A stretch of DNA of 61,985 bases from Candidatus Pacearchaeota archaeon (GCA_002688015.1 NZBT01000014.1:1-61985); one strand, 5' to 3'. Positions 1 to 45,982 are shown, counted from the first letter of the stretch. Translations and numbers: made by a program. Notes: generated from the sequence alone by a model not told the origin.

Positions 1-375
1 AGCTTAAAGAGTATAGATTTCATATGGTGAGTTATAGCCCTTCCACCCCATTAATAGCCGAATACTCAACAGAGGCTGAACAGTTACATCCTTTTCAAGG
101 ACAACCGATAGTTAATTCAGTCAGCAACAGTACTTAAGGACTTGTATTAACTAAGAAGTTACAATTAAATCTACAGAATTATCTGGGATTTTCTTCATTT
201 GCTCTACTGCTGTCCTTATGAATTAGCTATCCCTAACCTAAAACTCATATCAGAAAATAAATGGCTGGAGTTGATTAAAATGGCAAACTAAATTTTTTTG
301 ATGTTTTACCAACCTCTTAGGTAACAATGCATCATCAAGGCATAGTTTTAAAAAGCCTTAGAATTTTTGTTATTT

Positions 376-2232
376 ATGAGTCAAGACAATCACGCAAAAA
401 AAGAGAAAACACCAGAGACACTTACAGGAGAGCTGAATTCTAATAAGAAGTATGAGCCAAATATGGTTATGCCGGGAATGCCTGCTGGTATGGGGAAGAT
501 GCCTCAAATGCCAAAGCAGAAGACCCCTGAGGAAGTTAAAGCTGAGTTTGAAGCTCTTAAGAAGAAATTAGAGAATGTTAAGAAAAAGATTCTGAAGAAA
601 TATAAATTCACAAAATTCTTGAGTGTATTGCCAGGAGTTGGATTACCTTTATTTGCAGAAGATGAAGGAATGCCTGTTGAAGTTGAAAAGACAAATCCAA
701 CATTATTGCTGATGTGTATTCCTGAAGAACAATTTAAGGATATAAATAAGATTAAAGACGAAGTTGTAAAGATTATAAAAGAAAGTAAAGAGAATGTTTG
801 GCTTTTAGTTAAGACAGAAGTTGATTTGTGGAACTATGGATTAGACAGTAAGTTTGACTTGATGGATCTTGTTTCCGGAAGTTTTCCATTATATGACAAT
901 GGATTTTTAGGAGCATTAAGACTTGCAAATATTCATAAGTCTCTTGTATTGAGAAAGTTTGAGAAATATGTTGCTACATATGCGATTGGAGGAAGTTTAG
1001 TTAGAGGAGTTGCTGATAAGGATTCTGATTTTGATTGTATTGTGATTATTGATGATACGGATGTTAAAAGAATGCCAAGGCTTGAGCTATTGGAGAAACT
1101 TAGGGCAATGATTCATGATTATATAAGAGAAGCGATGGCTTTAGCTGGAGTTAAGAATAATTTACATGTTCAAGTATGGCTTCTTACTGATTTCTGGCAG
1201 AGAGTTAGAGATGCGGAGCCTGTTGCATTTACTTTTGTTAGAGATGGGATTCCATTTTATGATAGAGGAACATTTATTCCTTGGAAATTACTTTTGAAGA
1301 TGGGCAAGATTAAGCCAAGTCCGGAAGCAGTTGATATGTTTATGAAGTCTGGAGAGCAGACTGAAAACTTACTGAAAAGAAGAATGATTGATGCAATGAT
1401 AGATATTTATTATGGAGTTATTACTCCAACACAAGCGTTGATGATGCTTGCAGGACAAGCACCTCCTGACCCTAAAGGAATGGTTGCTGAAGTGAAGAAA
1501 ATTTTAGTTGAGAAGGAAAAACTTATGTCTCTTGCTGATTTAAAGATTTTAGAAAAAGCGATTAAGTTGTTTAAGGATTATGAACATGGTAAATTAAGTG
1601 AAATTTCTGGAACAGAGCTTGATAAGTTTAAGAAGGAACATGATGGTTATGTTAAAAAGATGAAGGAGATGAGAGGAAAGATTGAAGAGAGAATGCAGGA
1701 ATATGAAGCAGAGAGAGTTCAAAATGAAATTTTTGATTTAACAAAGAGCGTTTTTGGGAATAAGTCAAGAGAATCAATAATTAAAGACTTTGATTCCGAA
1801 TTGGTAAAGAAAGGAAAAGTCCCTAGAAGAATGTTGCAAGTTATTAGAAATGTTTCAGAAATTAAGCATAAAATTAAGGGAAAGAAGAAATTGAGTCCAA
1901 CAGAGATGCAAAAGTTTACAGCAGAAGCTAATGAACTTATTTCTGTATTGACAGAATATGCTCAGAGAAAGGAACTAGTTGCTATTGAGAAGTCTTTAAT
2001 ACAAGTTAAGGGAAAGAAAGGGAATGGAGAGTTAATGGTAACGGACAAGGAGACGTTTTTAGTACAATCAGGAAAGATAAGTAAGATTGTTGGGAAAAAG
2101 CTTGTTGATTCTAATGAAGAAGAATTGAGAGAAGCAAGTAAAAAAGCTAAAGACAGTTTGAAAGTTTCTCTTTCTGGAAATGTATTTTCTGTTCTACAAA
2201 AAGAGTTGGGCGACTTTGAGATAGTTTTGTAA
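376..2232 (+). CDS. Nucleotidyltransferase (Pol-beta/MNT-type) domain protein with long helical/coiled-coil C-terminal extension
   Basis: ORF 367..2232. NTase signature GGSLVRGVADKDSDFDCIVIIDD. The following helical domain (PSPEAV...AGQAPPDP) is paralogous to ORF 15009..16004. Start moved from TTG 367 to ATG 376 because TTTAAA 347-352 is centred 27 nt upstream. Confidence 0.7.
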   Translation: MSQDNHAKKEKTPETLTGELNSNKKYEPNMVMPGMPAGMGKMPQMPKQKTPEEVKAEFEALKKKLENVKKKILKKYKFTKFLSVLPGVGLPLFAEDEGMPVEVEKTNPTLLLMCIPEEQFKDINKIKDEVVKIIKESKENVWLLVKTEVDLWNYGLDSKFDLMDLVSGSFPLYDNGFLGALRLANIHKSLVLRKFEKYVATYAIGGSLVRGVADKDSDFDCIVIIDDTDVKRMPRLELLEKLRAMIHDYIREAMALAGVKNNLHVQVWLLTDFWQRVRDAEPVAFTFVRDGIPFYDRGTFIPWKLLLKMGKIKPSPEAVDMFMKSGEQTENLLKRRMIDAMIDIYYGVITPTQALMMLAGQAPPDPKGMVAEVKKILVEKEKLMSLADLKILEKAIKLFKDYEHGKLSEISGTELDKFKKEHDGYVKKMKEMRGKIEERMQEYEAERVQNEIFDLTKSVFGNKSRESIIKDFDSELVKKGKVPRRMLQVIRNVSEIKHKIKGKKKLSPTEMQKFTAEANELISVLTEYAQRKELVAIEKSLIQVKGKKGNGELMVTDKETFLVQSGKISKIVGKKLVDSNEEELREASKKAKDSLKVSLSGNVFSVLQKELGDFEIVL

Positions 2233-2233
2233 T

Positions 2234-2273
2234 TTGTTATTACTTAAAAATTATACTTTTAGAAAGGTTTAAG
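2234..2273 (+). promoter_or_regulatory. Promoter cassette A: upstream element TTGTTATTACTT plus AGAAAGGTTTAAG (BRE/TATA) for ORF 2297
   Basis: TATA hexamer 2268-2273 is centred 27 nt upstream of ATG 2297. The cassette matches 41 of 48 positions, without gaps, with 2659-2706. Confidence 0.6.
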
Positions 2274-2296
2274 TACCTCTTGTTTTCGTTTGTTTT

Positions 2297-2656
2297 ATGA
2301 AATTAGAAGATAGAATAGATTCAACTGAAATGAGAGAGAAATTGAACCATTTAGAGGATCATGTGCCTGGTTTAGGTGATGATGTTTATGAGTTTGGAAG
2401 ACTTTTGTCTGGAAGATTAAGTGAAGTAGATTCAATGGTAATTCCTGCAGGATATAATTTGTTAGTAGAAGTATTGTTATTTGATTTAGTTGAAGGATTT
2501 GATGGAATGGGAGAGCCAATAATTAGTGAATTATCTGGAGATTCTTCGAAGATTTATCAAGTGGAAAAATATATTGAACAGATTACTAATACAGTCTGTC
2601 CTGAAAAATTTGCTCAAAAAGTGAATGCGTTTAGAGGAACAATGTCAAGATATTGA
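2297..2656 (+). CDS. Hypothetical protein (119 aa), first gene of the GHKL cluster
   Basis: Complete ORF with a correctly spaced TATA. No motif recognised. Confidence 0.55.
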   Translation: MKLEDRIDSTEMREKLNHLEDHVPGLGDDVYEFGRLLSGRLSEVDSMVIPAGYNLLVEVLLFDLVEGFDGMGEPIISELSGDSSKIYQVEKYIEQITNTVCPEKFAQKVNAFRGTMSRY

Positions 2657-2658
2657 TA

Positions 2659-2698
2659 TTGTTATTACTTTAGAATTACACTCTTAGAAAGGTTTAAA
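2659..2698 (+). promoter_or_regulatory. Promoter cassette B: TTGTTATTACTT plus AGAAAGGTTTAAA for ORF 2735
   Basis: Same element and same 27-nt spacing to AGAAAGG as cassette A. TATA 2693-2698, with ATG 2735 about 12 nt past the expected TSS. Confidence 0.55.
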
Positions 2699-2734
2699 AA
2701 CGTCTTTTATTGGATATTCTGATAGGTATTTTAT

Positions 2735-3565
2735 ATGGAAGCTAAAACTTGGAATGCAAAATTGAATGATTGGATAGTTGATAATCCTGATAGGCTGACT
2801 GAACTTAAAGAGATATTTCCAAAAACAACTCTACAAGACTATAGAAATGGAAATGTATCAAATATTGGTAAAGTGAATTCATATTCTAGAGCTATGTTAT
2901 ATAAGATTACAGGTATTGAAGTTTTTAGGCCGGATAATTATGTAGACCCAAAGACTATAACAATTGGTCAAATTGAAAGCGGAAGGTTGCCAAGAGGAAG
3001 TTTAGATATTTGGCTCGGTTCTAAAGGAATTTCAAAAAGAGAAGTTGCTGAATCTGCAGGAGTTAGTATTGATTCTGTAACTGGATACATAGAAAGCAGG
3101 TCTTCTAGAAGAAGGGTTGTAACTAAGATTGAAAGAGCATTAAAGCAATATGAAAACATAGCTCCAAAGAGAGAAAAGGATCCAGTAAGAAAGGAGCCTG
3201 CGGAAGAAGCGCCCATGAAAGAGGATAGTGAAAATACAAAATTAACTGAATTGACTAAAGCAGTTGGAGAATTAGTAGAGCAAGTAGGGGCTCTTGGTGG
3301 AAGTTATGAGAAAGATCATGAAGAGAGAAGATTAGCATTGGATAATCATTTAGATGGTCTTGTGGATCAAATAGATTATTTCAGACAATGTTCTCAAGAG
3401 GAAAGGGACCAATTAGTGTCATATTTAAGAGAGACTGGACAAACGACTAGATGGGGTTGGTTAGTAAATATGTTTGGAGGAATTCATAGAGAAAAGGGTG
3501 TGCCAAGCACATTTTTGAGAGATATGGATGTTCCAGAAAAATTAAGCCCTAGGAGAAAAAGATGA
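2735..3565 (+). CDS. Putative DNA-binding protein with two XRE-like helix-turn-helix segments and a C-terminal helical region
   Basis: LKEIFPKTTLQDYRNGNVSNIGKVNSYSRAMLYKITGIEV and KGISKREVAESAGVSIDSVTGYIESR resemble Cro/C1-type HTH. The stop overlaps the next start (ATGA at 3562-3565). Confidence 0.5.
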   Translation: MEAKTWNAKLNDWIVDNPDRLTELKEIFPKTTLQDYRNGNVSNIGKVNSYSRAMLYKITGIEVFRPDNYVDPKTITIGQIESGRLPRGSLDIWLGSKGISKREVAESAGVSIDSVTGYIESRSSRRRVVTKIERALKQYENIAPKREKDPVRKEPAEEAPMKEDSENTKLTELTKAVGELVEQVGALGGSYEKDHEERRLALDNHLDGLVDQIDYFRQCSQEERDQLVSYLRETGQTTRWGWLVNMFGGIHREKGVPSTFLRDMDVPEKLSPRRKR

Positions 3566-5181
3566 CATATATAAAACCAAAAATAACTGAAGCTGGACAA
3601 CATAGAGCAATTGTGGAAGCTGGAGATATTTATACACATCCTTTATTTGCCTTTAAAGAATATCCAACTAATGGTCTTGATGCAATTTATAGAGCAATGG
3701 CGGAAAATGGATCTTTTGGGGGAGGAGTGCTTGATATTTTGATTGACTCGCAAAATAGAAGAGTGTTAGTAAGAGATGATGGTACTGGGATGCCTAACCA
3801 AACTGTGAAAACCCTTCCTGAGAGAATTTTTGAGGGAGATAAATTTGATAGGCCTAATGAAAGAGGAGAAAAAGGTATTGGGCTTACATCTTTCATTTCC
3901 CTTGGAGGAAGAGATAGAGGATCAAATGTAGATATTATTTCTAAAGTTCCTGAAGAAAGTCAATATGGTAGACTTAATTATAGTATAAAAGATGGAAGAC
4001 TTTATCCTGATTTTACAACTGTCGAAGATGAGGAAATGGAGAAAGGTTTTGGAGGAGGATTTGAGCAAGGAACAAAAGTTGTTTTAAATCTTGATAAATT
4101 AACTTTTAATGAGAATTTTAAGAATTTAAGTGTATTAAAAAGGTTTCTTAGAGAGACATACAGCCCTCTTTTAATGAGAAGTGAGATGATTGTTTGTTTA
4201 GGATCTTTATTAGGAGAGAAAAGTGAAGTTGTTTCTCCTATGAATTATCCTGGAGTGCCTTTGTTAGGATTGACAGGTAGAACAGAAACATATCAAGCAA
4301 TGACTGTTTTTCCAGATGGAAGTAGAGGAATGGATACTTTCCCTGTTCAGGTATTATTGTTTGCAGATCCAACTTCTAAGGCAAGAAAAGTAGGAGTTTA
4401 TACAAAAGATGTTAATGTTTATGATTCTGTAACTAGGTTATTGGAAAAAGACCCTAGAGTAGCTGCACTTCCTTTGTGGAGTTCTGGACATGTTTCTGGG
4501 TTTATTAATAATATGAATTTGAGTTTAGTTTTAGGAAGAGATGGTATTAGAAGAGGATCAAAAGTATTCAAGAAATTAGTTGATGTTTTAGAAGGATTAA
4601 ATGATGAACTTTGGCCTCAGGTAGAGTCATTAGTTACTCAGAAAGGGACAGATCAACAAAACCAAGATTTAAATGAAGCTTGGAATGTGCTTAGACAGAG
4701 TTATAAAACAACAGAGCCCATTGATATAATTAGAAGAGTTAGGAATCCTCCTCAAACTCCTGCTGGCCCGAGAGAACCTAGGAAGCCAAGAGAAATTGAA
4801 CAAGAAGGAACACATTCAGATTCAGGGAGAAGAGTTCCATTTAGAGTACCGATATTAGAAGATTTTGATCTACAAGAAGAACAATTAAGATCAAGATTGG
4901 GAGAAAATTTAGGAGATCCAACTATTTTTGTAAATTCTGCTCATCCTGATTATACAAGGCTTGTTGTAAATGGAAAACCAGAGGAAAAGCAATTTTACTT
5001 AGTTAATGTTATGGCGGCAGAAGCGGCTTCTTTTGAAACAGAAAATGCAGTTTCACGTGGAAGTTTGAGAGGAAGTCCAGTAGAGATTAGTCAAATTGCA
5101 GCTAGAAGGGCGCAAGATCTTGTCTTTAATAGTATTGGGAAAAATGGAAAAGGTAGAAGAAAAAGAAAGGATAATATGTAA
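3562..5181 (+). CDS. GHKL (Bergerat-fold) ATPase, MORC/HATPase_c_3-like
   Basis: N-box EYPTNGLDAI (aa 33-42), G1 box DDGTGM (aa 72-77), G2 box GEKGIGLTSF (aa 102-111). About 400 aa of uncharacterised C-terminal region ending in a basic tail. Confidence 0.7.
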   Translation: MTYIKPKITEAGQHRAIVEAGDIYTHPLFAFKEYPTNGLDAIYRAMAENGSFGGGVLDILIDSQNRRVLVRDDGTGMPNQTVKTLPERIFEGDKFDRPNERGEKGIGLTSFISLGGRDRGSNVDIISKVPEESQYGRLNYSIKDGRLYPDFTTVEDEEMEKGFGGGFEQGTKVVLNLDKLTFNENFKNLSVLKRFLRETYSPLLMRSEMIVCLGSLLGEKSEVVSPMNYPGVPLLGLTGRTETYQAMTVFPDGSRGMDTFPVQVLLFADPTSKARKVGVYTKDVNVYDSVTRLLEKDPRVAALPLWSSGHVSGFINNMNLSLVLGRDGIRRGSKVFKKLVDVLEGLNDELWPQVESLVTQKGTDQQNQDLNEAWNVLRQSYKTTEPIDIIRRVRNPPQTPAGPREPRKPREIEQEGTHSDSGRRVPFRVPILEDFDLQEEQLRSRLGENLGDPTIFVNSAHPDYTRLVVNGKPEEKQFYLVNVMAAEAASFETENAVSRGSLRGSPVEISQIAARRAQDLVFNSIGKNGKGRRKRKDNM

Positions 5182-5200
5182 CTTAAAAGTTATAACAATA

Positions 5201-5216
5201 GTTAAATTTAAATATC
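5201..5216 (+). promoter_or_regulatory. Internal TATA box for ORF 5236
   Basis: GTTAAATTTAAATATC. TTTAAA 5207-5212 is centred 27 nt upstream of ATG 5236. Confidence 0.5.
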
Positions 5217-5235
5217 AACAAATAAGACAAATAAA

Positions 5236-6399
5236 ATGGCTAAAAAATCACTACGTACTCCTTGGACAGAAGATGCAGCTAAATTAGCTTGGATTAGAAC
5301 TCTCCAAAGAGTAAAGGCTTCAGAAATTGTAAAAGAATTAGCTAGCCCTGAAAATGTTATCGGTGTAGCTTTTCCTGGAAAGACAAATAGTTCTATCCAC
5401 ACATTAACTAGTTCTATTAGAAAGGGGAAACATGATAGATTTTCTCATTTGAGCGTCGAAATTCCAGATATGGAGAGTATTCCTGAACAATTTACTTCTG
5501 TTCCTAAACAAGCTAGACAAAGAGGGAGAAAAAGTGGATATGATGATGGAAGAAATGAATTTTTATGGAGAGCTAGAAATCAGTTAAATTTGTCTTGGAA
5601 TGATACTGCAGAAAGATATAATGCAGTATTTGGTGAAGAAAAAACTAATAAAGGACTTATGACTCAATATCATAGATTAAATTTGAAAGGATATAGTCCT
5701 ACAAATCCAGACCTTGATATTGATGATTATATGGCAAGTCTTCCTGATTCTGATGTCGGAGGCGTAAGAGGAAAATCTCCAAGAGCTAATTTGGCTAAAG
5801 CAGGAACAGGATCTTTAAGAGAAAGATTGGTTCAACAAGACAAAAGAGCTTCTGAGGTTTTAGTAGAAAGAGCCGATTTTATTTATTCTGCACTGATTGA
5901 TCAAGCAGATAGAGTAAAGAATTTTGATCTTGTGAATACTTATGGAGGAACATCTCTGGCTGATTTGATGAGTTTAGGTGATTCCGAAAGAGAGAGAATA
6001 GTTACATTGCTTGAGAGAGGAAGTAATGGAGAAGCTATTAAGAATATTGAATTGTTTGTGATGGGAAATGTAGTTTCTGGAAGATCAGGAATTAGTGTTG
6101 TAATGCCTACTTATGTAGATGATGAGAAAAAATCAGCTAGCAATTTAAGAAGCGCTTTGAATGATACGGCTTTTGCAGTATTGTCTCAAGCTACTGGTTT
6201 AAAGAGAGCAAATCCATTTAGAGGAAGATTTAGAGATCTTGTTACATATGGATTTAATGTTTCTGGAGAAGGTCCTGATTATAGCGCTTTAGGAGATCAA
6301 ATAGCAAGTGAGCTTGAGGATGAATATGAAGGAATAGGAGTTTCATTTTTAGTTGATTCATTTCCTGTTGAATTATATGGAAAGCTAAGAGGAAAATAA
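5236..6399 (+). CDS. Hypothetical protein with two weak Myb/SANT-like (Trp-spaced HTH) segments
   Basis: RTPWTEDAAKLAWIRTL and LSWNDTAERYNAVFGEEKTNKGLMTQYHRL resemble Myb/SANT repeats. This is an eye-level match only. Confidence 0.4.
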   Translation: MAKKSLRTPWTEDAAKLAWIRTLQRVKASEIVKELASPENVIGVAFPGKTNSSIHTLTSSIRKGKHDRFSHLSVEIPDMESIPEQFTSVPKQARQRGRKSGYDDGRNEFLWRARNQLNLSWNDTAERYNAVFGEEKTNKGLMTQYHRLNLKGYSPTNPDLDIDDYMASLPDSDVGGVRGKSPRANLAKAGTGSLRERLVQQDKRASEVLVERADFIYSALIDQADRVKNFDLVNTYGGTSLADLMSLGDSERERIVTLLERGSNGEAIKNIELFVMGNVVSGRSGISVVMPTYVDDEKKSASNLRSALNDTAFAVLSQATGLKRANPFRGRFRDLVTYGFNVSGEGPDYSALGDQIASELEDEYEGIGVSFLVDSFPVELYGKLRGK

Positions 6400-6400
6400 A

Positions 6401-8404
6401 ATGAGTCTTAAGCGAATGCCAAGCGATAGGCTTAGAGATTTAAAAAAGAGCCCTAGAGAATTAAGAGCTTATTGTGTTGAAAATAAATTAGATATTGTTG
6501 ATGTTTTAGATGAAATCGAAGATCTTCTTGCAAATAGAACAGAAAGAAGAAGAACAGGAAGAAGAGTAAAGAAAAAGACTAAAGGAAAATCTGATTCACA
6601 TGCTCCAAAGAGTGCAAGAGAGGTTATAGACGATGTTCAATCAGAATATAGAAAGCAGAGGTTTAGTTATGGAACATCTACATTAGAAGAGTTTTCTTCA
6701 AGAGTAGAATTCGATTTAGAACAAAATGATTTAGAGACTAATACATCTACAAGTTTTCAAGGATTTGTAGCTAATAGATTATATGAATCTTTATTTGTTA
6801 ATAAGTATACTCCTGGAGATGGAAAAAGAAGAAGGAGAATAAGAAAGAAAGTTAAAGAATGTTTGAAAATAACAAAAGATGAAGATTTCTCAAAGTTTTT
6901 GTGGGTTACTTTTGATCCGGAATCAATGGATAAAATAAGGGGAGTCTTATCTAGAGATTATGTTAGAGAAAATTATGGATTTGTAGATGGAGATCTTGTC
7001 TTATTAAGGGACGGGGAAGTTGTTAAAGAGCCTAGTATTGAAGGAACGAGAAGTTGGTATGATCCAGAAAAAGAAGAAACAAGAAAGATGCTTGTTGATC
7101 ATGTTGAAAAATTTCTTTTAAGTGAAATTAAGGGAAGAACGGGAGTTGTTGATGGTACAATTAGAACTGTTAGGGATGAGAGAAAAATCCTTGAAGATAG
7201 AATAGGAGAAATTCGAGAACAGATCGTGGAGATAGGAGAAGGTCGAAGAAAATTACAATTCTTTATGAAGGGTCCTAATTATCGAATTGATCAATTCGTT
7301 AAAGATGTTCTTGGAGGGAGATCAAGATCATCTAAAGTTGAAGGAAGAGAAGTTTCTGAAAGGGGAACACTAGTTGGAGAGAAGAATGCTCAACACTTGA
7401 CTATTACTTTTGATTTGAGAACTTATACACCTAGTCTTGTTGGGGAATTTTTTGAACAATATAAAAAATTTATAAGGTCTCTTCCTAAAAGTGAAAGAGG
7501 AGAGTTTGAATCAAACCTTAATCAAATTTTAAAGGATGGTATTCTTGGAGAACATGCAATTCAAATAAAAAATCGAGAAATTGGTAGATGTGATTTTGAA
7601 ATTAGAAAGATTGACACTCGTGAAAGAGAACTTGTAGAAAGAAAGAAGGCTCCTGTAGAACTTAATTATTTAGGTTTAGAAGGTCCTAATTTTACAAGTT
7701 TTTTCAAACTTCATAATGCTCTTTCAAGTGAAGGTGTTAGTTTAAGGGGTGTTTTCCCTGAGAATGGAGAGAGAGCATACAATTTGATGACTAGCCTTAT
7801 TGAACATGGGGAATTTGATGGAGCATTTGACTCTTCTGAAGCTGTTAGAGCTGATTTAGATGAGTTATTACTTCTTGATTTTCTTAATCATCCAGACGTT
7901 GGAGTTGTTCAAGATACTGATGAAGAAAGTGATACTAGTTTGAGAGTTAAGTATAAACGTGAATCTTTAAGTATTGATGATTATCATTCAGCAATTGATA
8001 GGCTTGAGAAAGAGAGTGTAAAAAAAGTTGCTGGACATTATGATATCTCTGAAGAGTTTGCTACAATTATATCAAATAGACCTGATTATAAATTCGATAT
8101 TGTTTTCCTTGATTATGTTGGTAGAATGACTCCAAGAAGGGAAAAAGCTTTAGAAACGCTTGTTAAGAGAAGATTGAAAGATAGTGCGGTTGTTGCAACA
8201 ACAGTTAATATTAATCCTTGGGTAAATCCTAAGAGAGAATCAGGAGACGCTGCAGAGTTAAACAATAACTTTTTAGAAATTGCATGGGACGCATTTACAA
8301 AGAATGGTTATACTCCTGTTGATATGGCTGGAAGAGAATACAATACAGATCTTGCGAATAAATCAAATATTTTGTTCCAAATTTATCCTTTGAAGAAAGA
8401 TTAA
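6401..8404 (+). CDS. Large basic/coiled-coil protein with a C-terminal degenerate Rossmann methyltransferase-like region
   Basis: One nt after the stop of ORF 5236. Arg/Lys-rich N-terminus. From about aa 418: LNYLGLEGPN (motif I-like), VFPENGE (motif II-like acidic residue), FDIVFLDY (motif IV-like, compare FDxVFxDPPF of RsmD-type enzymes). Confidence 0.35.
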   Translation: MSLKRMPSDRLRDLKKSPRELRAYCVENKLDIVDVLDEIEDLLANRTERRRTGRRVKKKTKGKSDSHAPKSAREVIDDVQSEYRKQRFSYGTSTLEEFSSRVEFDLEQNDLETNTSTSFQGFVANRLYESLFVNKYTPGDGKRRRRIRKKVKECLKITKDEDFSKFLWVTFDPESMDKIRGVLSRDYVRENYGFVDGDLVLLRDGEVVKEPSIEGTRSWYDPEKEETRKMLVDHVEKFLLSEIKGRTGVVDGTIRTVRDERKILEDRIGEIREQIVEIGEGRRKLQFFMKGPNYRIDQFVKDVLGGRSRSSKVEGREVSERGTLVGEKNAQHLTITFDLRTYTPSLVGEFFEQYKKFIRSLPKSERGEFESNLNQILKDGILGEHAIQIKNREIGRCDFEIRKIDTRERELVERKKAPVELNYLGLEGPNFTSFFKLHNALSSEGVSLRGVFPENGERAYNLMTSLIEHGEFDGAFDSSEAVRADLDELLLLDFLNHPDVGVVQDTDEESDTSLRVKYKRESLSIDDYHSAIDRLEKESVKKVAGHYDISEEFATIISNRPDYKFDIVFLDYVGRMTPRREKALETLVKRRLKDSAVVATTVNINPWVNPKRESGDAAELNNNFLEIAWDAFTKNGYTPVDMAGREYNTDLANKSNILFQIYPLKKD

Positions 8405-8802
8405 TCGTAAGTTCCCATATTATAATGAGCGATGTGTGCTCTTATTTTTGCTGGATCGAAATCTTTAAGTTCACTATCTTCATAAATTTCTGAATTTTCA
8501 GCTCCAGAGTCAAGTAATTCTGTAATTCTGTTTATTATTATTGTATCTACATCAAATAAATTGTCAAGCATTCCTAAAAGTTGAGATTTCTCTTGAGAGC
8601 TTAATCTATCAAGAGCAGATTCTGGAATTGCTACTCCTCTGAATTCGTTTCTATCTTTGCTATATTGTGCAAGCTTAACTGTTAAACCTGATTTATGGCC
8701 TGCTAGAACTTGAGGAGATATTCTTTCAGAACTTCTAATCTTTCCATCTGGTAGTCCTTCTCCTAATTTTCTATATATTCTATTACTTTTCTGTTTATTC
8801 AT
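8401..8802 (-). CDS. Hypothetical protein (133 aa)
   Basis: ORF 8401..8889 trimmed to ATG 8802. The minus-strand TATA (plus-strand TATAAAAA 8824-8831) is centred about 26 nt upstream and lies in the gap after ORF 8876..9784. Confidence 0.5.
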   Translation of the reverse strand: MNKQKSNRIYRKLGEGLPDGKIRSSERISPQVLAGHKSGLTVKLAQYSKDRNEFRGVAIPESALDRLSSQEKSQLLGMLDNLFDVDTIIINRITELLDSGAENSEIYEDSELKDFDPAKIRAHIAHYNMGTYD

Positions 8803-8875
8803 GAAAGTTTTGGAAATTGTAGGTATAAAAATCTTTTTATGAATTTTCACTATGGATTGATACTGACAAAAAAAT

Positions 8876-9784
8876 TTAAGACTGATCATTTCTTCTTGTT
8901 AATTCAGTTCCTACAACTATTTCCCAAGGAGTGAAATTTCTATAATCGAAGATATTGTCTTCTAAGTCTAGGACAAGCATTTGCATTCCTCTTTCTGCTT
9001 GCATACAACCCAAGTATTCTTCTGTAGTACAGTTTAGTCCTAAAAAGTCTACGGGATAGTAAGCGATTACTTTTCCATCTTCTTTCATGAAGGGCGTTGC
9101 TATTTGTGCAACTTCTATAATGTGATAGTTTGGATATGCTGACAAAGCTATATCTACTCCTTCAGGACAATGAGATGTGAATTGAGGTACATGATTCTCA
9201 AAATCTGCTTGAATTAATGTAACTTTGTCTTTAGCTATGGCTATATTTTGGGGAGACAGATTTTCTATATTAGTTTGTGTTCTTTGAATAGCATGTTCGT
9301 TGGAATCAATACAATAAATTCTTTCTAAGTTTTCTAGGAATAGAGCTAATCCAATTGATATTCTTCCATCTCCACATCCTAGGTCAACTATTGAAAATCT
9401 TTCTTTTTCTGTAGATAATTTTTCTAATAGAGATTGGAGAGTTTTTCTTGTTCTTAGAACTGTTTCTGGAGGAAGAAAATCACATAGACCTGTTTTGAGC
9501 ATGTGTCCGATTATATTGTCATATTCTCTTATCGTACTCTTTTCTATCTGTTCTTCGCTTAAAGCATCCCATTCATCTATAGGTTCTGGGCCGAACATTT
9601 CTTTAATTTCAAATTTATATTTTTCATATGATTCTCCTAGTTGTTTTATCTCTTTCTCAGTTACTTTTCTTCCAATTCTTTTTAAGACTTTTTGATATCC
9701 TTCTAAGGCTGGGTGTAAAGGCCAGTAAGAACTAAGAAATTCTTCTACTTTTGCGTTCTCTTGTGTTGTTACTGCTGTTTGCAT
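8876..9784 (-). CDS. Class I SAM-dependent methyltransferase
   Basis: Motif I IVDLGCGDGRISIGLA, then CIDSNEHAI and IQADFENH in the usual order. Confidence 0.75.
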   Translation of the reverse strand: MQTAVTTQENAKVEEFLSSYWPLHPALEGYQKVLKRIGRKVTEKEIKQLGESYEKYKFEIKEMFGPEPIDEWDALSEEQIEKSTIREYDNIIGHMLKTGLCDFLPPETVLRTRKTLQSLLEKLSTEKERFSIVDLGCGDGRISIGLALFLENLERIYCIDSNEHAIQRTQTNIENLSPQNIAIAKDKVTLIQADFENHVPQFTSHCPEGVDIALSAYPNYHIIEVAQIATPFMKEDGKVIAYYPVDFLGLNCTTEEYLGCMQAERGMQMLVLDLEDNIFDYRNFTPWEIVVGTELTRRNDQS

Positions 9785-10675: not shown

Positions 10676-11164
10676 ATGGGATATAGGAAGAGAAATCTTC
10701 AATATGATGAAGGAGAAATTAGATCTATAGAGAACATGATGCATCGTTCTTCTTCTGCTTCTGATTTTAGATGTAGACTTGAAAAATTTGTATCAAGAAG
10801 GGGAAGAGATATTTCAAGACTTAGAGGGATTAACGGAAAAGAAAGGCTTGTCGTTAAGCTGGCTTTATCTGGGAAATCTCAGGAAGAGATAGAAGAAAGA
10901 ACAGAATTGAGTAATAAACCAATAAGGAACTTTCTTGAAAGAATAGGGGTTTTAGATTATTGGACTAAGCTCAGAGAGCAAGCAAGAAAGGAAAATTCTA
11001 GAGAGTATAGAGGTTTGAAAAGAGCTGCTCAGTCTGATGAACCTCCAAGTTTGAGAAAGTTGACAAAATATCAAGGACCTAATACTCCTGAAGGAGTTAA
11101 GAAGTATTTAATTTCCGAAGGGATTTATCAAGATTATCTTAAGAGAAGAGGAAAGAAGACATAA
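10676..11164 (+). CDS. Hypothetical Arg-rich protein with LuxR/sigma-r4-like HTH, directly behind L10e
   Basis: ERLVVKLALSGKSQEEIEERTELSNKPIRNFLERIG. Starts 1 nt after the rpl10e stop. Confidence 0.4.
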   Translation: MGYRKRNLQYDEGEIRSIENMMHRSSSASDFRCRLEKFVSRRGRDISRLRGINGKERLVVKLALSGKSQEEIEERTELSNKPIRNFLERIGVLDYWTKLREQARKENSREYRGLKRAAQSDEPPSLRKLTKYQGPNTPEGVKKYLISEGIYQDYLKRRGKKT

Positions 11165-14130: not shown

Positions 14131-14173
14131 TTTGTTACTTTTCTTGAGTAATAACATAATAGAAAGCTTTAAA
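14131..14173 (+). promoter_or_regulatory. Promoter cassette C: TTTGTTA...GAGTAATAACA...AGAAAGCTTTAAA for ORF 14197
   Basis: TTTAAA 14168-14173 is centred 27 nt upstream of ATG 14197. The 69-nt block matches 53 of 69 positions, without gaps, with 34921-34989. Confidence 0.6.
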
Positions 14174-14196: not shown

Positions 14197-15012
14197 ATGA
14201 GTCCAGACAATGATAAAGAGAGATATGACGCGTTTGCAGGAGCTTTTATACAGAGAAAGCAGGCAGAAGGTTTAGCTAAGGCTTTGCGTGATCCTAAAGC
14301 TGATGTAGACACAAGGCAAAGTGCTAGAGAGTATGCTATGCATCATTCTCTTACTATTGAAGGAAATGAGGCTTTGCGAGATGAAGGAGTTAGAAATGAA
14401 GTTGAAACAAATGATGCTCTTATTGAAAGATTCTTACACGGAGCTGTAACTTATCATACTGTTGCATCTACTAATATTTTTGATGATAATAGGGGTGCGA
14501 TAATTTTAGGAGCACCTGAAGATAAGTTAGTAGAACATTATCTTGAATTAACACCTACAAAGGATGAATCTGGAGCTAGTGATGCCGAGACACATAATAA
14601 GAGAGTGGGTCTACATTCTAATGTTTTGGAATTAAACCAACTTTTAAGAGATCATCAAGATCCTGAGAAAAGAGTAGGGCATGCCGATTTAATTACTAGT
14701 GTTAAAGAATATGTTGAAGAAAAAACAAAGAAGATTATAGATGAAGATCTAAAAGTTAGAGGAGATGAAGCTGTTTATAAGATAGCTCTTAGTAATAATA
14801 TGCAAACATTGGCACTTTCTGAGAGAGCGGCACAGATTAGAGTTCACTTGTATGCAAACGATAAGAAGGAAGAGTTAGATGGTGTGCTCGGAAGTGATTC
14901 TGGAAAAGCAACTTATACAAGAAGAAACTTGAATTTACTTGCTGATAGAGATTCTAAAGGAAAAGATTTTGTAATGGAATACTTAGTAGGGCTCTCTCTT
15001 GAAAGAAATTAA
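14197..15012 (+). CDS. Hypothetical protein (271 aa)
   Basis: Complete ORF with a canonical leaderless promoter. No motif recognised. Confidence 0.55.
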   Translation: MSPDNDKERYDAFAGAFIQRKQAEGLAKALRDPKADVDTRQSAREYAMHHSLTIEGNEALRDEGVRNEVETNDALIERFLHGAVTYHTVASTNIFDDNRGAIILGAPEDKLVEHYLELTPTKDESGASDAETHNKRVGLHSNVLELNQLLRDHQDPEKRVGHADLITSVKEYVEEKTKKIIDEDLKVRGDEAVYKIALSNNMQTLALSERAAQIRVHLYANDKKEELDGVLGSDSGKATYTRRNLNLLADRDSKGKDFVMEYLVGLSLERN

Positions 15013-15860
15013 GATTTTTCTAACATTTCATCAATAAGTTTAATCATATCTGCAAGGAATTTTTCTGCAGTCTCTTGCCATTTGTCAATTTCAGATCCTT
15101 TTATATCGCTTATTTCTCTATAAGAAATTGTTTTATGTAAACCATAAAGGTCTTTTATGGCCCTTACTGCGTCCATTTTTAGTAAGCCAGGATCTACGAA
15201 AGTTGTCTTAAGTAGTTCGGGAATTTTTTCAGGGCTTGGAGGAACTTTTCCAGCAGTTATTAGTGCTGCTTGAGCAGAATCAATCATTGCCCAATAAGCT
15301 CCTTCTATTGCAGACATTTCTGCTTGTTTTGATCTTGCTAAATGTAGGGGGGCACGTTGTAAAGCAGCATAAACTGCTTCTGGAGTTGAACGTATTCTTC
15401 CTTGTAGTAATAAGGCTTTGATTGGTTCGAAAAATCCTCCTGAATCTATTAATACTTCTCCATATCTTAGAATGTTTAGTACAACAGGATCGCCATGAAG
15501 AACATCATTCCACCAACTTGTTAATTTTATTGTGTTTATGTGGAATCTTTCAGAATCTTTTTGTGCAGCAATTATTTTTCCTAATTCTTCCCTGTACCAT
15601 GCAATTAATTCTAAATCCCAATTAATTGATGCATCATCAAGAATAATAATTAAATCTATGTCAGAACTTTGGTTGGAAGTATTTTTTGCTTGACTGCCGA
15701 ATAAAACGGTTGCTTTAATCATCTTATCAAACTTTGCATATATCTTCTGAGCTAAATCAAGGGCAATTTCTTTCTCACTCTTAGTAAGCTTTCTAGAGAC
15801 ATTTTTTTCGGATTCTTTAGAAGACTTCTTTTTTTTAGAAGATTTTTTCTTTTTTACCAT
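15009..15860 (-). CDS. Nucleotidyltransferase (MNT-type) domain protein with C-terminal helical domain; paralog of 376..2232
   Basis: LFGSQAKNTSNQSSDIDLIIILDD. STPEAV...AGKVPPSP blocks are shared with ORF 376. Start placed at MVKKKKSSKKKK (ATG 15860), but the upstream in-frame ATG 15929 is not excluded. Confidence 0.65.
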   Translation of the reverse strand: MVKKKKSSKKKKSSKESEKNVSRKLTKSEKEIALDLAQKIYAKFDKMIKATVLFGSQAKNTSNQSSDIDLIIILDDASINWDLELIAWYREELGKIIAAQKDSERFHINTIKLTSWWNDVLHGDPVVLNILRYGEVLIDSGGFFEPIKALLLQGRIRSTPEAVYAALQRAPLHLARSKQAEMSAIEGAYWAMIDSAQAALITAGKVPPSPEKIPELLKTTFVDPGLLKMDAVRAIKDLYGLHKTISYREISDIKGSEIDKWQETAEKFLADMIKLIDEMLEKS

Positions 15861-15987
15861 CTTTCTCTTTTTGTTGTCAAGATTGTTGTTTAAATGGATG
15901 CAATCTTGAGCATCCAGAAACCTAAACATTAAGGAAAAGGTTTCTTGATATAATTGAATACTTAATATTCTTTTTAAATGTTTATAA

Positions 15988-34920: not shown

Positions 34921-34963
34921 TTTGTTATCTTGCAAGAGTAATAACAGTCCAGAAAGATTTAAA
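34921..34963 (+). promoter_or_regulatory. Promoter cassette D: TTTGTTAT...GAGTAATAACA...AGAAAGATTTAAA for ORF 34987
   Basis: TGTTAT/ATAACA inverted repeat with a 12-nt spacer. TTTAAA 34958-34963 is centred 27 nt upstream of the ATG. Homologous to cassette C. Confidence 0.6.
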
Positions 34964-45905: not shown

Positions 45906-45982
45906 CTTTATGTATAAAAAATGTATAATCTGAGTATATAAACCTTTGTATATGTTATAACTTCAGAGTGACATAAAGATAG

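What the first reader, a model, noticed from the sequence alone, without database searches (positions are those of the whole stretch)
2234..8404. Five-gene orphan cluster built around a MORC-like GHKL ATPase, with HTH, Myb-like and degenerate methyltransferase-like partners
Seen in sequence:
- Five co-directional ORFs of 119, 276, 539, 387 and 667 aa form three tightly packed units. These are the promoter at 2268 for ORF 2297, the promoter at 2693 for ORFs 2735 and 3562 (ATGA overlap), and the promoter at 5207 for ORFs 5236 and 6401 (1-nt spacer).
- ORF 3562 has all three Bergerat-fold boxes: EYPTNGLDAI, DDGTGM, GEKGIGLTSF.
- ORF 2735 carries two XRE-like HTH segments.
- ORF 5236 has two Trp-spaced Myb/SANT-like segments.
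- The last 250 aa or so of ORF 6401 read like a Rossmann methyltransferase with a degraded motif I (LNYLGLEGPN, VFPENGE, FDIVFLDY) and an acidic insertion.
- A genuine SAM methyltransferase (8876..9784) sits convergently next door.

Established knowledge: prokaryotic MORC-type GHKL ATPases occur in restriction-modification-like conflict neighbourhoods (Iyer, Abhiman and Aravind, Biology Direct 2008).

Inference: this partner set has no recognisable nuclease, helicase, restriction subunit or integrase. It does not match any defence or RM architecture I recognise, so it may be an undescribed DNA-sensing, epigenetic or chromatin-type system of a reduced archaeon.
Basis: partly seen in the sequence, partly recalled or inferred. 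Interest (0 to 1): 0.78.

Follow-up and report, generated by a model that had tools for sequence, protein, structure and literature searches.

The report
Archaeal HTH–GHKL ATPase gene cluster
A real, uncharacterised gene cluster of DPANN (Pacearchaeota-like) archaea pairs a helix-turn-helix protein with a GHKL ATPase and usually adds three or four further orphan proteins; it has its own palindromic promoter motif and matches no named defence, restriction or topoisomerase system.

Summary
The membership of the cluster and the "MORC-like" label both need correcting.

- **Conserved set.** It is W2 (2735-3565, HTH protein), W3 (3562-5181, GHKL ATPase), W4 (5236-6399), W5 (6401-8404) and the convergent small gene W6 (8401-8802/8889, minus strand). 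The SAM methyltransferase W7 (8876-9784, minus strand) is present in 2 of 5 complete clusters.
- **W1.** W1 (2297-2656) was found in no relative and sits between two copies of a 53-nt promoter repeat.
- **Linkage.** The five genes stay together in four other genomes. Two of these have unrelated flanks and one has a rearranged gene order, so the genes are functionally linked.
- **Core.** W2+W3, nearly always abutting or overlapping, is the universal core. The GHKL family has 69 representative clusters at E≤1e-30.
- **W3.** It has all catalytic GHKL residues and a confident model (pLDDT 91.6). Its nearest relatives are Hsp90 and Topo VI-B/GyrB, not MORC.
- **Operator.** A palindrome, TGTWAY-N9-RTWACA, abuts the TATA-type promoter of W2 and W4 here and in relatives.
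- **What is missing.** No nuclease, helicase, integrase or known defence model was found.
- **Function.** The most likely role is an autoregulated, DNA-directed ATPase clamp system of conflict or epigenetic type. This is inferred, not shown.

The parts
2234..2286 (+). Copy 1 of a 53-nt direct repeat. It carries an operator-like palindrome (2235-2255, 1 mismatch) and a BRE/TATA-like element (TATA-like TTTAAGTA at 2268) in front of W1.
   Evidence: the repeat finder D1, 83% identity to 2659-2711.
2297..2656 (+). W1, a 119-aa acidic ORF. It is lineage-specific and not part of the conserved cluster, but it sits behind a duplicated copy of the cluster promoter.
   Evidence: No homologue in any related locus (jackhmmer). 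In L002, L008 and L012 the upstream 621-aa gene is followed directly by the W2 homologue. No family hits.
2660..2680 (.). Palindromic operator TGTTATTACTTTAGAATTACA (TGTWAY-N9-RTWACA), 5 nt upstream of the BRE/TATA-like AGAAAGGTTTAAAAA (2686-2700) of the W2-W3 promoter.
   Evidence: Exact pattern: 2 matches in 62 kb against 0.03 expected. The same motif lies 39-55 nt upstream of W2/W4 homologues in L002, L007, L008 and L010.
2735..3565 (+). W2, 276 aa. It has an N-terminal HTH-like domain, a second XRE-like HTH (about residues 90-140, present only in the larger-cluster clade) and a conserved C-terminal helical domain (about 190-270). It is the obligate partner of the GHKL ATPase.
   Evidence: A homologue lies immediately upstream of the GHKL gene in every locus examined. 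Alignment A4. Sub-threshold HTH_3/31/26 hits in 5 of 9 members.
3562..5181 (+). W3, a 539-aa GHKL ATPase. [quoted passage not shown]
5177..5197 (.). Second copy of the palindromic operator (TGTAACTTAAAAGTTATAACA), directly upstream of the TATA-like TTTAAATA (5207) of the W4-W5 promoter.
   Evidence: (I7).
5236..6399 (+). W4, 387 aa. It has N-terminal Myb/SANT-like helical repeats whose copy number varies between orthologues, and a conserved C-terminal domain (about 186-387) of unknown fold.
   Evidence: Alignment A6. Homologues in L002, L008, L011, L012, L013 and L015. No PDB or Pfam assignment.
6401..8404 (+). W5, 667 aa. It has an N-terminal region of unknown fold, a predicted long helices, and a C-terminal Rossmann/methyltransferase-like domain (about aa 415-667, nt 7643-8401) with a variable acidic insertion (about aa 495-560).
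   Evidence: Homologues in L008, L011, L012, L013 and L015. The C-terminal domain alone, without the insertion, occurs in a 470-aa protein next to the W2-GHKL pair in L017. PF20553 sub-threshold in 3 of 6.
8401..8889 (-). W6, a small protein with two HTH-like repeats, convergent with W5. The conserved start is probably the ATG at 8802 (133 aa), with a TATA-like TTTTATAC about 25 nt upstream.
   Evidence: Alignment A7. Homologues in the same convergent position in L008, L011 and L013, and in the rearranged L015. Sequence.
8876..9784 (-). W7, a 302-aa class I SAM-dependent methyltransferase with a conserved N-terminal extension of about 110 aa. It is an optional member of the cluster.
   Evidence: Methyltransf_31 at 2e-9. 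Closest solved relative is CbiT at 1e-4. An orthologue (33%) sits in the same position in L011 and is absent from L008 and L015. No conserved (D/N)PP(Y/F) motif.
367..2232 (+). A 621-aa protein with a nucleotidyltransferase domain. It is a conserved neighbour and is not assigned to the system.
   Evidence: PF01909 at 1.5e-6. It is adjacent to the cluster in L002, L008, L012 and L005 but not in L011, L013 or L015.

Best explanation
This is a chromosomally encoded, autoregulated, DNA-directed GHKL-ATPase system of DPANN archaea.

**Shown.**
- The core is a pair whose genes almost always abut or overlap: W2 (an HTH protein) and W3 (a GHKL ATPase with an intact ATP site, a transducer domain with a conserved arginine, a long helix and a family-specific C-terminal domain).
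- One clade adds W4 (Myb-like repeats plus an unknown domain), W5 (a large protein ending in a methyltransferase-like Rossmann domain), the small double-HTH-like W6, and sometimes a true SAM methyltransferase, W7.
- The promoters of the cluster carry a conserved palindrome, TGTWAY-N9-RTWACA, right next to the BRE/TATA element.

**Inferred.**
- W2 binds that palindrome as a dimer. It thereby controls the cluster and acts as the sequence-specific adaptor for W3.
- W3 works like other GHKL+transducer engines (Hsp90, MutL, Topo VI-B, MORC): ATP binding closes an N-terminal dimer gate, so the complex clamps or remodels DNA or DNA-bound partners.
- W4 and W6 supply further DNA contacts.
- W5 and/or W7 supply a methyl mark or a SAM-dependent switch.
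- The system is patchy, evolves much faster than its housekeeping flanks, and is shuffled and rearranged as modules. I therefore think it is an accessory conflict or epigenetic-type system (marking, silencing or excluding particular DNA) rather than core housekeeping.
For: **Co-conservation.**
- W2-W3-W4-W5 with convergent W6 recur in L008/L009 (same flanks), in L011 and L013 (unrelated flanks), and in L015 in the rearranged order W4-W5, W6, W2-W3.
- The partial contigs L002 and L012 agree.
- W2-like plus GHKL is present in all 15 distinct loci. In 14 of them the genes overlap or are at most 1 nt apart.
- The C-terminal domain of W5 is linked to the pair again, in a different protein, in L017.

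**ATPase competence.** The GHKL motif residues and R326 are invariant or nearly invariant. The model has pLDDT 91.6, with Foldseek hits to Hsp90, GyrB and Topo VI-B across the N-terminal and middle domains.

**Operator.**
- There are 2 exact matches in the window against 0.03 expected, both at cluster promoters.
- All 6 exact matches in about 205 kb of related loci lie 39-55 nt upstream of W2 or W4 homologues. The first, narrower pattern found the L007 site, which had not been used to derive it.
- One-mismatch copies lie in front of W1, of the L011 and L013 W2 genes, of the L013 W6 gene, and of the 12-gene block that ends in W2-W3 in L001.

**Accessory and fast-evolving.**
- Between the window and L008 the flanking genes are 59-68% identical, but W2 is 30%, W3 29%, W6 30% and W5 47%.
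- W3 of the window is closer to the L011, L012 and L013 proteins (34-36%) than to L008.
- The family has only 69 representative clusters at E≤1e-30 among 1.84 billion proteins.

**Not a recent insertion.** GC content is even across the region. No integrase was found, and there are no relatives in IMG/VR.
Against: - No effector (nuclease, helicase, protease, TIR and so on) was recognised in any member. PADLOC found nothing for W1-W6 apart from one weak Cas10 match for W2 (E 0.0019).
- The loci lie among housekeeping genes, not in obvious defence islands.
- DNA binding by W2, W4 and W6 rests on sub-threshold HTH hits and on sequence patterns.
- The methyltransferase nature of the W5 domain is unproven.
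- W7 lacks a DNA amino-methyltransferase motif IV, and its nearest solved relative is CbiT.
- One-mismatch versions of the palindrome also precede two unrelated orphan genes in the window, at 14133 and 34923. The motif may therefore belong to a wider regulon or to another regulator.
- Nothing here measures ATPase activity, DNA binding or methylation.
Confidence: 0.4

Rival explanations
1. Housekeeping chromatin or transcription module. The same proteins form a lineage-specific nucleoid-organising or gene-regulatory machine: HTH and Myb-like factors plus an ATP-driven remodeller that controls host genes. There would be no role in conflict with foreign DNA.
For: - The cluster sits in a stable chromosomal position between a nucleotidyltransferase-domain gene and the L35Ae/L10e genes in the window, L008 and L012.
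- Base composition is even.
- No effector or defence hit was found.
- Operator-like sites occur in front of other genes of the window: 14133, 34923, 143 and 45953. A similar site lies at the position equivalent to 14133 in L008 (18210).
Against: - The distribution is patchy and the family is small.
- W2 and W3 diverge twice as fast as their flanks and do not follow the flank phylogeny.
- The cluster also occurs in unrelated neighbourhoods and in a rearranged order.
- The module content varies: a pair, a pair plus a small gene, five genes, or six genes.
Confidence: 0.25
2. Maintenance or regulatory module of an old integrated mobile element (plasmid or virus). The HTH protein would be the repressor and the ATPase a partition, replication or packaging-type factor.
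For: - In L001 the pair closes a block of twelve small co-directional orphan genes that sits next to an AbrB/MazE-type gene and is preceded by an operator-like site.
- W1 is bracketed by a 53-nt direct repeat.
- The gene content is modular and shuffled.
- GHKL proteins such as rIIA and Hsp90-like proteins are common in viruses.
Against: - No integrase, transposase, capsid or replication hits were found by Pfam or PHROGs.
- The only tRNA gene in the window lies about 38 kb away.
- There is no compositional shift.
- Three scans of 2.9 million IMG/VR contigs found no relatives.
- Flanks are syntenic between genomes whose housekeeping proteins are only about 60% identical.
Confidence: 0.1
3. A cryptic DNA-cleaving or topology-changing machine. 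W3 would be a Topo VI-B-like or MutL-like subunit, and its catalytic nuclease partner would be hidden in the unassigned parts of W4, W5 or the W3 C-terminal domain.
For: - The best NCBIfam hits of W3 are Topo VI-B models, at 9.6e-7.
- Foldseek aligns about 490 columns with Topo VI-B, including the long helix after the transducer domain.
- The W3 C-terminal domain has conserved polar residues (R443, N458, H461).
- Large parts of W4 and W5 have no assignment.
Against: - The NCBIfam score is 27.7 bits against a cut-off of 274.
- No Toprim, 5Y-CAP/Spo11, PD-(D/E)xK, HNH or MutL-type nuclease hit was found in any partner.
- Inspection of the conserved W5 residues found no E...DxD or ExK arrangement.
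Confidence: 0.08
4. A protein chaperone. W3 would be an archaeal Hsp90 analogue, and its neighbours would be co-chaperones or clients.
For: - The strongest sequence match is to the Hsp90 N-domain, at 2.8e-13, including the Hsp90-type Y-x-x-x-x-x-A/F-L-R/K-E-L/Y-x-x-N-x-x-D-A segment.
- The strongest fold matches are TRAP1, GRP94, HtpG and Hsc82, at E~1e-14.
Against: - The partners look like DNA-binding and methyltransferase-type proteins, and the cluster has a dedicated operator.
- Foldseek E-values for GyrB and Topo VI-B are almost as good.
- The transducer domain has no sequence match to Hsp90.
- The region after residue 330 (long helix, basic linker, small alpha/beta domain) is family-specific.
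- W3 is about 100-150 residues shorter than HtpG/Hsp90.
Confidence: 0.05

Closest known systems
MORC / paraMORC GHKL ATPases of prokaryotic restriction-modification-like neighbourhoods (Iyer, Abhiman and Aravind 2008, PMC2292703)
   Same: - An N-terminal GHKL domain with all ATP-binding motifs.
- A following transducer/S5-like domain that supplies a conserved basic residue.
- A family-specific C-terminal extension, as in paraMORC1-5.
- Sporadic distribution.
- Occasional linkage to a methyltransferase.
   Different: - No SF-II helicase, restriction-fold, HNH, Vsr or TIR partner.
- The MORC-specific S5 motif was not recognised.
- Hsp90, GyrB and Topo VI-B outrank any MORC structure.
- The obligate partner here is an HTH protein, and the extra partners are orphans.
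Hsp90/HtpG family
   Same: It gives the best sequence and fold match over the N-terminal ATPase domain and the first part of the middle domain. This includes a conserved arginine in an N-L-S-like context, where Hsp90 has its catalytic-loop arginine (that equivalence is inferred).
   Different: - W3 is shorter.
- The C-terminal half differs.
- W3 sits in an operon with HTH proteins.
- The middle domain shows no sequence similarity to Hsp90.
Topoisomerase VI subunit B
   Same: GHKL domain, transducer and a long C-terminal helix. The ATP-lid sequence RGEKGIGL resembles the RGQQGIGI of Topo VI-B.
   Different: - No Topo VI-A/Spo11 partner.
- No H2TH domain was recognised.
- Scores are far below the family cut-offs (27.7 against 274 bits).
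MADS and other methylation-based defence systems (BREX, DISARM)
   Same: A multi-gene cluster containing a SAM methyltransferase. W7 hits the PADLOC mad2 model at 1.6e-13 and DrmMII at 1.5e-3.
   Different: - Only the generic methyltransferase fold matches.
- None of the mandatory MAD6-8 proteins, nor any BREX or DISARM component, is present (bioRxiv 10.1101/2023.03.30.534895 for the MADS model).
- W7 is dispensable for the cluster; it is absent in L008 and L015.

Membership tests
GHKL ATPase superfamily (Bergerat fold) | Motifs I (ExxxNxxD), II (DxGxG), III (G-rich ATP lid) and IV (GT), in a Bergerat fold. | tested here: met
   - E33, N37, G76, G107 and G170 are invariant; D40, D72, G102, E103 and T171 are at least 90% conserved in 60 sequences.
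- HATPase_c_3 is hit by 58 of 60 members.
- The model has pLDDT 91.6, with Foldseek probability 1.00 to Hsp90, GyrB and Topo VI-B.
GHKL + transducer (S5-like) subgroup (Hsp90, MutL, type II topoisomerase ATPase, MORC) | A second alpha/beta domain after the GHKL domain that contributes a conserved basic residue to the ATP site. | tested here: met
   Foldseek alignments of about 390-490 columns span the N-terminal and middle/transducer domains. R326 in LGRDGxxR is nearly invariant. Its catalytic role is inferred.
MORC family sensu Iyer et al. 2008 | The MORC-specific GhXhhpXXRhl motif in the S5 domain, with MORC proteins as the closest relatives. | tested here: not met
   - The segment G313-F-I-N-N-M-N-L-S-L-V-L-G-R326 does not place the Arg at the motif's spacing (by inspection).
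- No MORC appears in the top 50 Foldseek PDB hits.
- The transducer-only profile hits MORC4 only at E 0.42.
MORC/paraMORC restriction-modification-like systems | A conserved neighbourhood with an SF-II helicase and/or restriction-fold, HNH or Vsr nuclease and a DNA methylase. | tested here: not met
   No helicase or nuclease family hit in W1-W7 or their orthologues. A methyltransferase is present in only 2 of 5 complete clusters, and it has no DNA-methylase motif IV.
Hsp90/HtpG | The full three-domain architecture (N, M, C-terminal dimerisation domain) at family-level scores. | tested here: inconclusive
   - The N-domain profile hit is 2.8e-13.
- Fold hits cover about 400 columns of N and M.
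- The middle domain shows no sequence match.
- The C-terminal half is family-specific.
- No Hsp90 Pfam or NCBIfam hit was reported for W3.
Topoisomerase VI (type IIB) | A B subunit at family score, plus an A subunit (5Y-CAP and Toprim) encoded alongside. | tested here: not met
   NCBIfam PRK04184 gives 27.7 bits against a cut-off of 274. No Toprim or Spo11 hit in any neighbour.
Known anti-phage defence systems (PADLOC-DB v2, including MADS, BREX, DISARM) | Matches to the mandatory components of a system. | tested here: not met
   No hit for W1, W3, W4, W5 or W6. W2 gives only a spurious Cas10 fragment at 0.0019. W7 matches only the methyltransferase models mad2 and DrmMII.
Class I SAM-dependent methyltransferase (W5 C-terminal domain) | A Rossmann fold with a Gly-rich motif I, an acidic residue at the end of beta2, and motif IV, at profile or structural significance. 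| tested here: inconclusive
   - Conserved LxLE(G/S)xN, E454, D485, LDY(571-572) and TxN fall in the expected order.
- PF20553 is hit by 3 of 6 domain sequences, but below the cut-off (best 19.6 bits against 27).
- There is no PDB hit.
- hhalign against W7 is negative.
- The AlphaFold model has pLDDT 47.
Class I SAM-dependent methyltransferase (W7) | A Pfam methyltransferase domain above the cut-off, with an intact motif I. | tested here: met
   Methyltransf_31 at 37.7 bits against a cut-off of 27; also MTS and Methyltransf_32. The DLGCGDG motif is conserved in the L011 orthologue.
XRE/Cro-C1 HTH (W2) | An HTH_3-type domain at the Pfam cut-off. | tested here: inconclusive
   HTH_3 gives 16.2 bits against a cut-off of 23 for W2. 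Five of 9 homologues hit HTH_3, and others hit HTH_31, HTH_26 or HTH_19, all sub-threshold.
Myb/SANT (W4 N-terminus) | A Myb_DNA-binding or SANT profile match, or a three-helix fold. | tested here: inconclusive
   - No Myb or SANT hit in any of 6 homologues.
- DUF7626 is hit in two (1.1e-5) and CENP-B_N in one (5.6e-3).
- Only the W-x-E-E...L / I-x-x-E-L...G-R-T pattern supports the reading.

The most novel reading that the evidence does not exclude
The cluster is a nuclease-free, sequence-targeted DNA-clamping and silencing system of DPANN archaea. An HTH adaptor would load an Hsp90/MORC-type ATPase clamp at specific palindromes. Myb-like and methyltransferase-like partners would write or read a mark. 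This would be a prokaryotic counterpart of eukaryotic MORC-type epigenetic silencing, or a new kind of immunity that works without a nuclease. The operator identified here would make it directly testable.
Probability: 0.2. Interest if true: 0.85.

Novelty: new variant of a known kind. Interest (0 to 1): 0.62.

Why it matters
GHKL+transducer ATPases are the engines of topoisomerases, mismatch repair, Hsp90 and MORC chromatin silencing. Their prokaryotic "conflict" versions have so far been described with helicase and nuclease partners.

This family differs in two ways. Its constant partner is a DNA-binding HTH protein, and its extended form brings only further DNA-binding-like and methyltransferase-like orphans.

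It is confined, as far as seen here, to DPANN-type archaea. These have tiny genomes, and a 6-7 kb accessory cluster is a large investment for them.

The work gives a defined gene set, a family alignment, a confident ATPase model and a candidate 21-bp operator. An uncharacterised system therefore becomes experimentally approachable through EMSA, an ATPase assay, pull-downs and methylome analysis.

Tried and rejected
1. **Named defence systems.** PADLOC gave nothing except the generic methyltransferase domain of W7 and one weak Cas10 fragment for W2. MADS was read up and rejected because its mandatory MAD6-8 proteins are missing.

2. **Virus or mobile-element origin.** PHROGs gave only weak regulator hits. 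Three IMG/VR scans, with the GHKL family (two alignments) and with W5, found no relatives. A fourth scan with W2 could not run because the alignment had no conserved stretch.

3. **GTDB genome scan.** It returned only one distant bacterial GHKL protein (L003, N-terminal similarity only). This protein is not a family member.

4. **W5 homologues and structure.**
   - Two word-index searches found only one cluster, P0005.
   - The two-sequence job gave pLDDT 47, so no fold search was run on it.

5. **Sequence-level assignment of W4, W5, the W5 C-terminal domain and the W3 transducer to solved structures.** There were no significant hits.

6. **W5 C-terminal domain against the W7 methyltransferase by hhalign.** No similarity.

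7. **Toprim, PD-(D/E)xK or HNH readings of conserved W5 and W3 C-terminal residues.** Inspection found no consistent motif. This is inspection only.

8. **The small third gene of pair-only loci as a W6 homologue.** hhalign gave E 0.038 with probability 1.4%, so it is left open.

9. **Sigma-70 promoter and terminator scan.** The count was at chance level and the scan is irrelevant for an archaeon.

10. **Literature searches.** Searches for GHKL/MORC with DPANN or archaeal HTH operons found no description of this cluster.

Full report
**1. What is in the window**

The ORF listing reproduces the five co-directional ORFs exactly:

| Name | Coordinates | Length |
|---|---|---|
| W1 | 2297-2656 | 119 aa |
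| W2 | 2735-3565 | 276 aa |
| W3 | 3562-5181 | 539 aa |
| W4 | 5236-6399 | 387 aa |
| W5 | 6401-8404 | 667 aa |

- W2 and W3 overlap by ATGA. W4 and W5 are 1 nt apart.
- Two genes converge on the cluster from the minus strand: W6 (8401-8889, 162 aa as the longest ORF) and W7 (8876-9784, 302 aa).
- Upstream lies a 621-aa ORF (367-2232) with a nucleotidyltransferase domain (PF01909, 1.5e-6).
- GC content is flat at 0.33-0.35 across the region.

The contig is an archaeal chromosome piece. It carries:
- L35Ae and L10e directly downstream;
- RpoB, RpoA, aEF-2, a ThrRS with the archaea-specific editing domain, GluRS and a class II ribonucleotide reductase;
- a 135-nt, hence intron-containing, tRNA that Rfam finds and ARAGORN misses.

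A member of the 90%-identity cluster of the closest W5 homologue is annotated Candidatus Pacearchaeota archaeon (MBS3071447.1). "Reduced DPANN archaeon" is therefore supported.

**2. The ATPase (W3)**

*Superfamily.*
- On its own W3 is only sub-threshold in Pfam (HATPase_c_3, 2.3e-4). Its best NCBIfam hits are Topo VI-B models far below cut-off (27.7 against 274 bits).
- The word-index search found just two relatives.
- An exhaustive HMM search with a three-sequence profile found 811 hits at E≤1e-3, 69 of them at E≤1e-30. Nearly all are full length at 500-560 aa.
- In a 60-sequence alignment, E33, N37, G76, G107, G170, P202 and G313 are invariant. D40, D72, G102, E103, T171, R326 and others are at least 90% conserved. 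All four GHKL motifs are therefore intact.
- 58 of 60 members hit HATPase_c_3, best 2.3e-16.

*Nearest relatives.*
- The family profile hits the Hsp90 N-domain in the PDB at 2.8e-13. The match includes the segment before motif I.
- AlphaFold with this alignment gives a confident model: pLDDT 91.6, pTM 0.83.
- The model comprises a Bergerat domain, an alpha/beta transducer-like domain ending in the conserved LGRDGxxR, a 50-residue helix (334-383), a low-confidence basic linker, and a small alpha/beta domain (431-538).
- Foldseek against the PDB ranks Hsp90-family chains first: TRAP1, GRP94, HtpG and Hsc82, at E~1e-14 over about 400 columns of the N and M domains. GyrB and Topo VI-B follow at E~6e-13 over about 490 columns. 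No MORC entry is in the top 50.
- Against viral models the hits are giant-virus Hsp90-like proteins, phage rIIA and topoisomerase II.
- A profile of the lid and transducer part alone has no significant PDB sequence hit. MORC4 appears at E 0.42.

*Conclusion.* W3 is a GHKL ATPase of the transducer-bearing class and is probably active. It forms a family of its own and is not a MORC in the sense of Iyer et al. 2008 (PMC2292703). Their MORC-specific S5 motif is not evident by inspection.

**3. Which genes belong together**

Related loci were fetched through W3 and W5 homologues. They were compared by BLAST, hmmsearch and jackhmmer.

- **(a) L008/L009.** This is a related genome whose flanks are syntenic: nucleotidyltransferase gene 59%, L35Ae 68%, L10e 64%, PEP synthase 59%. 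It has W2 (30%), W3 (29%), W4 (42% over the C-terminal half), W5 (47%) and convergent W6 (30%). It has neither W1 nor W7.
- **(b) L011 and L013.** Their flanks are unrelated, yet they carry W2-W3-W4-W5 with convergent W6. L011 also has a W7 orthologue (33%) in the same position.
- **(c) L015.** Its GHKL is only about 24% identical, but it has all five genes in a different order: W4-W5, convergent W6, then W2-W3.
- **(d) L002 and L012.** These short contigs agree as far as they reach. In both, the nucleotidyltransferase gene is followed directly by the W2 homologue.
- **(e) Every locus.** All fifteen distinct loci have a W2-like gene immediately upstream of the GHKL gene. In fourteen of them the two genes overlap or are at most 1 nt apart.
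- **(f) L017.** A 470-aa protein just upstream of the pair matches only the C-terminal domain of W5 (model positions 400-472 and 559-666), that is, without the acidic insertion.
- **(g) L001, L005, L006 and L010.** These pair-only loci share a third small gene (125-228 aa). Its similarity to W6 is only suggestive (hhalign E 0.038).

The conserved system is therefore a W2+W3 core plus a W4-W5-W6 module, with W7 optional. W1 is not part of it.

W2 and W3 evolve about twice as fast as the flanking genes and do not follow their phylogeny. W3 of the window is closer to the L011, L012 and L013 proteins (34-36%) than to L008 (29%), whereas W5 follows the flanks (47% to L008).

**4. The partners**

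- **W2.** It has an N-terminal HTH-like domain. A second XRE-like HTH is present only in the larger-cluster clade. A conserved helical C-terminal domain ends in a basic PPxK tail. HTH profiles hit 5 of 9 homologues, all below cut-off.
- **W4.** Its N-terminus is variable, with one to four repeats of a W-x-E-E...L...I-x-x-E-L...G-R-T pattern that reads as Myb/SANT-like. There are only DUF7626 and CENP-B_N hits in homologues. Its conserved C-terminal 200 aa have no match.
- **W5.**
  - No PDB or Pfam assignment exists for the first 400 aa.
  - The C-terminal domain is a discrete unit with invariant LxLE, E, D, LDY and TxN, arranged as in motifs I-IV of class I methyltransferases, and with an insertion of variable length.
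  - Three of six domain sequences hit PF20553 (Methyltransf_35), best 6.6e-4 and below cut-off.
  - A profile comparison with W7 is negative, and the only structure job possible gave pLDDT 47.
- **W6.** It has two HTH-like repeats, and its real start is probably the ATG at 8802.
- **W7.** It is a bona fide class I SAM methyltransferase (Methyltransf_31, 2e-9). Its closest solved relative is CbiT. Motif IV is not conserved as (D/N)PP(Y/F), so a DNA amino-methylase role is not indicated.

PADLOC, PHROGs and NCBIfam give nothing else.

**5. A shared operator**

- The repeat finder shows a 53-nt direct repeat (83% identical) at 2234-2286 and 2659-2711 that brackets W1. An inverted match links 2657-2680 and 5177-5200.
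- The common element is a palindrome, TGTWAY-N9-RTWACA. It ends 3-5 nt before an AGAAAG(G/A)TTTAAA-type BRE/TATA element.
- Exact matches in the window number two, at 2660-2680 and 5177-5197. The expected number is 0.03, and none of 100 shuffles reached two.
- In about 205 kb of related loci all six exact matches lie 39-55 nt upstream of W2 or W4 homologues: L002 twice, L007, L008/L009 and L010.
- The pattern was derived from some of these sites. The L007 site was recovered by the first, narrower pattern before it had been looked at.
- One-mismatch copies precede W1, the W2 genes of L011 and L013, the W6 gene of L013, and the first gene of the 12-gene block that ends in W2-W3 in L001.

*Caveat.* With one mismatch the window has 10 sites against 2.0 expected. 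Two of them sit in near-identical promoter cassettes of unrelated orphan genes (14133-14153 before ORF 14197; 34923-34943 before ORF 34987). The regulon may therefore be wider, or the motif may be read by another factor.

**6. Interpretation**

*Shown:* a conserved, co-regulated gene set; a competent-looking GHKL engine; an obligate HTH partner; an optional methyltransferase; and no recognisable nuclease, helicase or integrase.

*Inferred:*
- W2 binds the palindrome, autoregulates the cluster and targets W3.
- W3 acts as an ATP-gated dimeric clamp or remodeller on DNA-bound complexes.
- W4 and W6 add DNA contacts.
- W5 and W7 add methylation or SAM sensing.

The patchy distribution, fast evolution and modular shuffling point to an accessory conflict or epigenetic role (confidence about 0.4). 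The rivals are a housekeeping chromatin or regulatory module (0.25), a relic mobile-element module (0.1), a cryptic cleavage or topology machine (0.08) and a protein chaperone (0.05).

**7. Comparison with what is known, and novelty**

The system works like the GHKL+S5 engines that Iyer et al. describe for MORC/paraMORC systems. It fails the tests for membership of MORC, Topo VI, MADS and every PADLOC system. Its Hsp90 similarity is limited to the ATPase half.

Literature searches found no description of it. I file it as a new variant of a known kind: a new GHKL family with a new, conserved partner set and a candidate operator.

**8. Limits**

- Only 15 distinct neighbourhoods were seen.
- Taxonomy rests on one annotated homologue and on marker genes.
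- All HTH, Myb and methyltransferase assignments of the partners are below curated thresholds.
- No function was measured.

Noticed in passing
window 2234-2286 and 2659-2711: A 53-nt direct repeat (83% identical) brackets W1. The W2 promoter and operator have been duplicated in front of a lineage-specific 119-aa acidic ORF that has no homologue in any related locus.
   Followed up: partly
window 14133-14153 (before ORF 14197-15012) and 34923-34943 (before ORF 34987-35541); also 143-163 and 45953-45973: One-mismatch copies of the palindrome sit in front of BRE/TATA elements of other genes. The two cassettes at 14133 and 34923 are nearly identical down to the start codon (…TTTTATTGAAAAAGTATG). 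Both precede orphan proteins with no Pfam hit and no similarity to each other. L008 has a similar site at 18210-18230, before the gene that follows its PEP synthase.
   Followed up: partly
window 47613-47747: A 135-nt tRNA, presumably intron-containing, is found by Rfam (55 bits). ARAGORN reported no tRNA in the whole 62-kb window.
   Followed up: no
window 51365-54805: A single 1146-aa ORF carries Rpb1 domains 1-5. RNA polymerase subunit A therefore appears unsplit here, whereas most archaea encode A' and A'' separately (the latter from general knowledge).
   Followed up: no
window 367-2232 and 15009-16004: A 621-aa protein with a nucleotidyltransferase domain is a conserved neighbour of the cluster in L002, L005, L008 and L012. 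It has a shorter paralogue 13 kb away. Orthologues of both also occur in L008, and the short form lies near the pair in L017.
   Followed up: partly
L005 1535-2998: The GHKL gene of this locus seems disrupted at its 5' end. The longest ORF starts at the equivalent of residue 77, while tblastn similarity extends back to residue 25. This suggests a frameshift, a pseudogene or an assembly error.
   Followed up: no
L001 11639-12325, L006 11648-12025, L010 3808-4326, L005 190-723: Loci with only the W2-GHKL pair share a third small conserved gene (125-228 aa) next to the pair. Its Y-x-K-A-R-D-E-G-M-S…Q-I-K segment aligns weakly with the C-terminal repeat of W6 (hhalign E 0.038).
   Followed up: partly
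L001 5424-12656: The W2-GHKL pair lies within a run of twelve co-directional, tightly packed orphan genes. The run is preceded by a one-mismatch operator copy (5424-5444) and by a divergent AbrB/MazE-domain gene, and two Ser/Thr protein kinase genes lie upstream.
   Followed up: no
window 10676-11164: A 162-aa ORF between the L10e gene and PEP synthase has weak GerE/sigma-70 region 4 HTH hits. L008 has an unannotated 129-aa gene at the same position.
   Followed up: no
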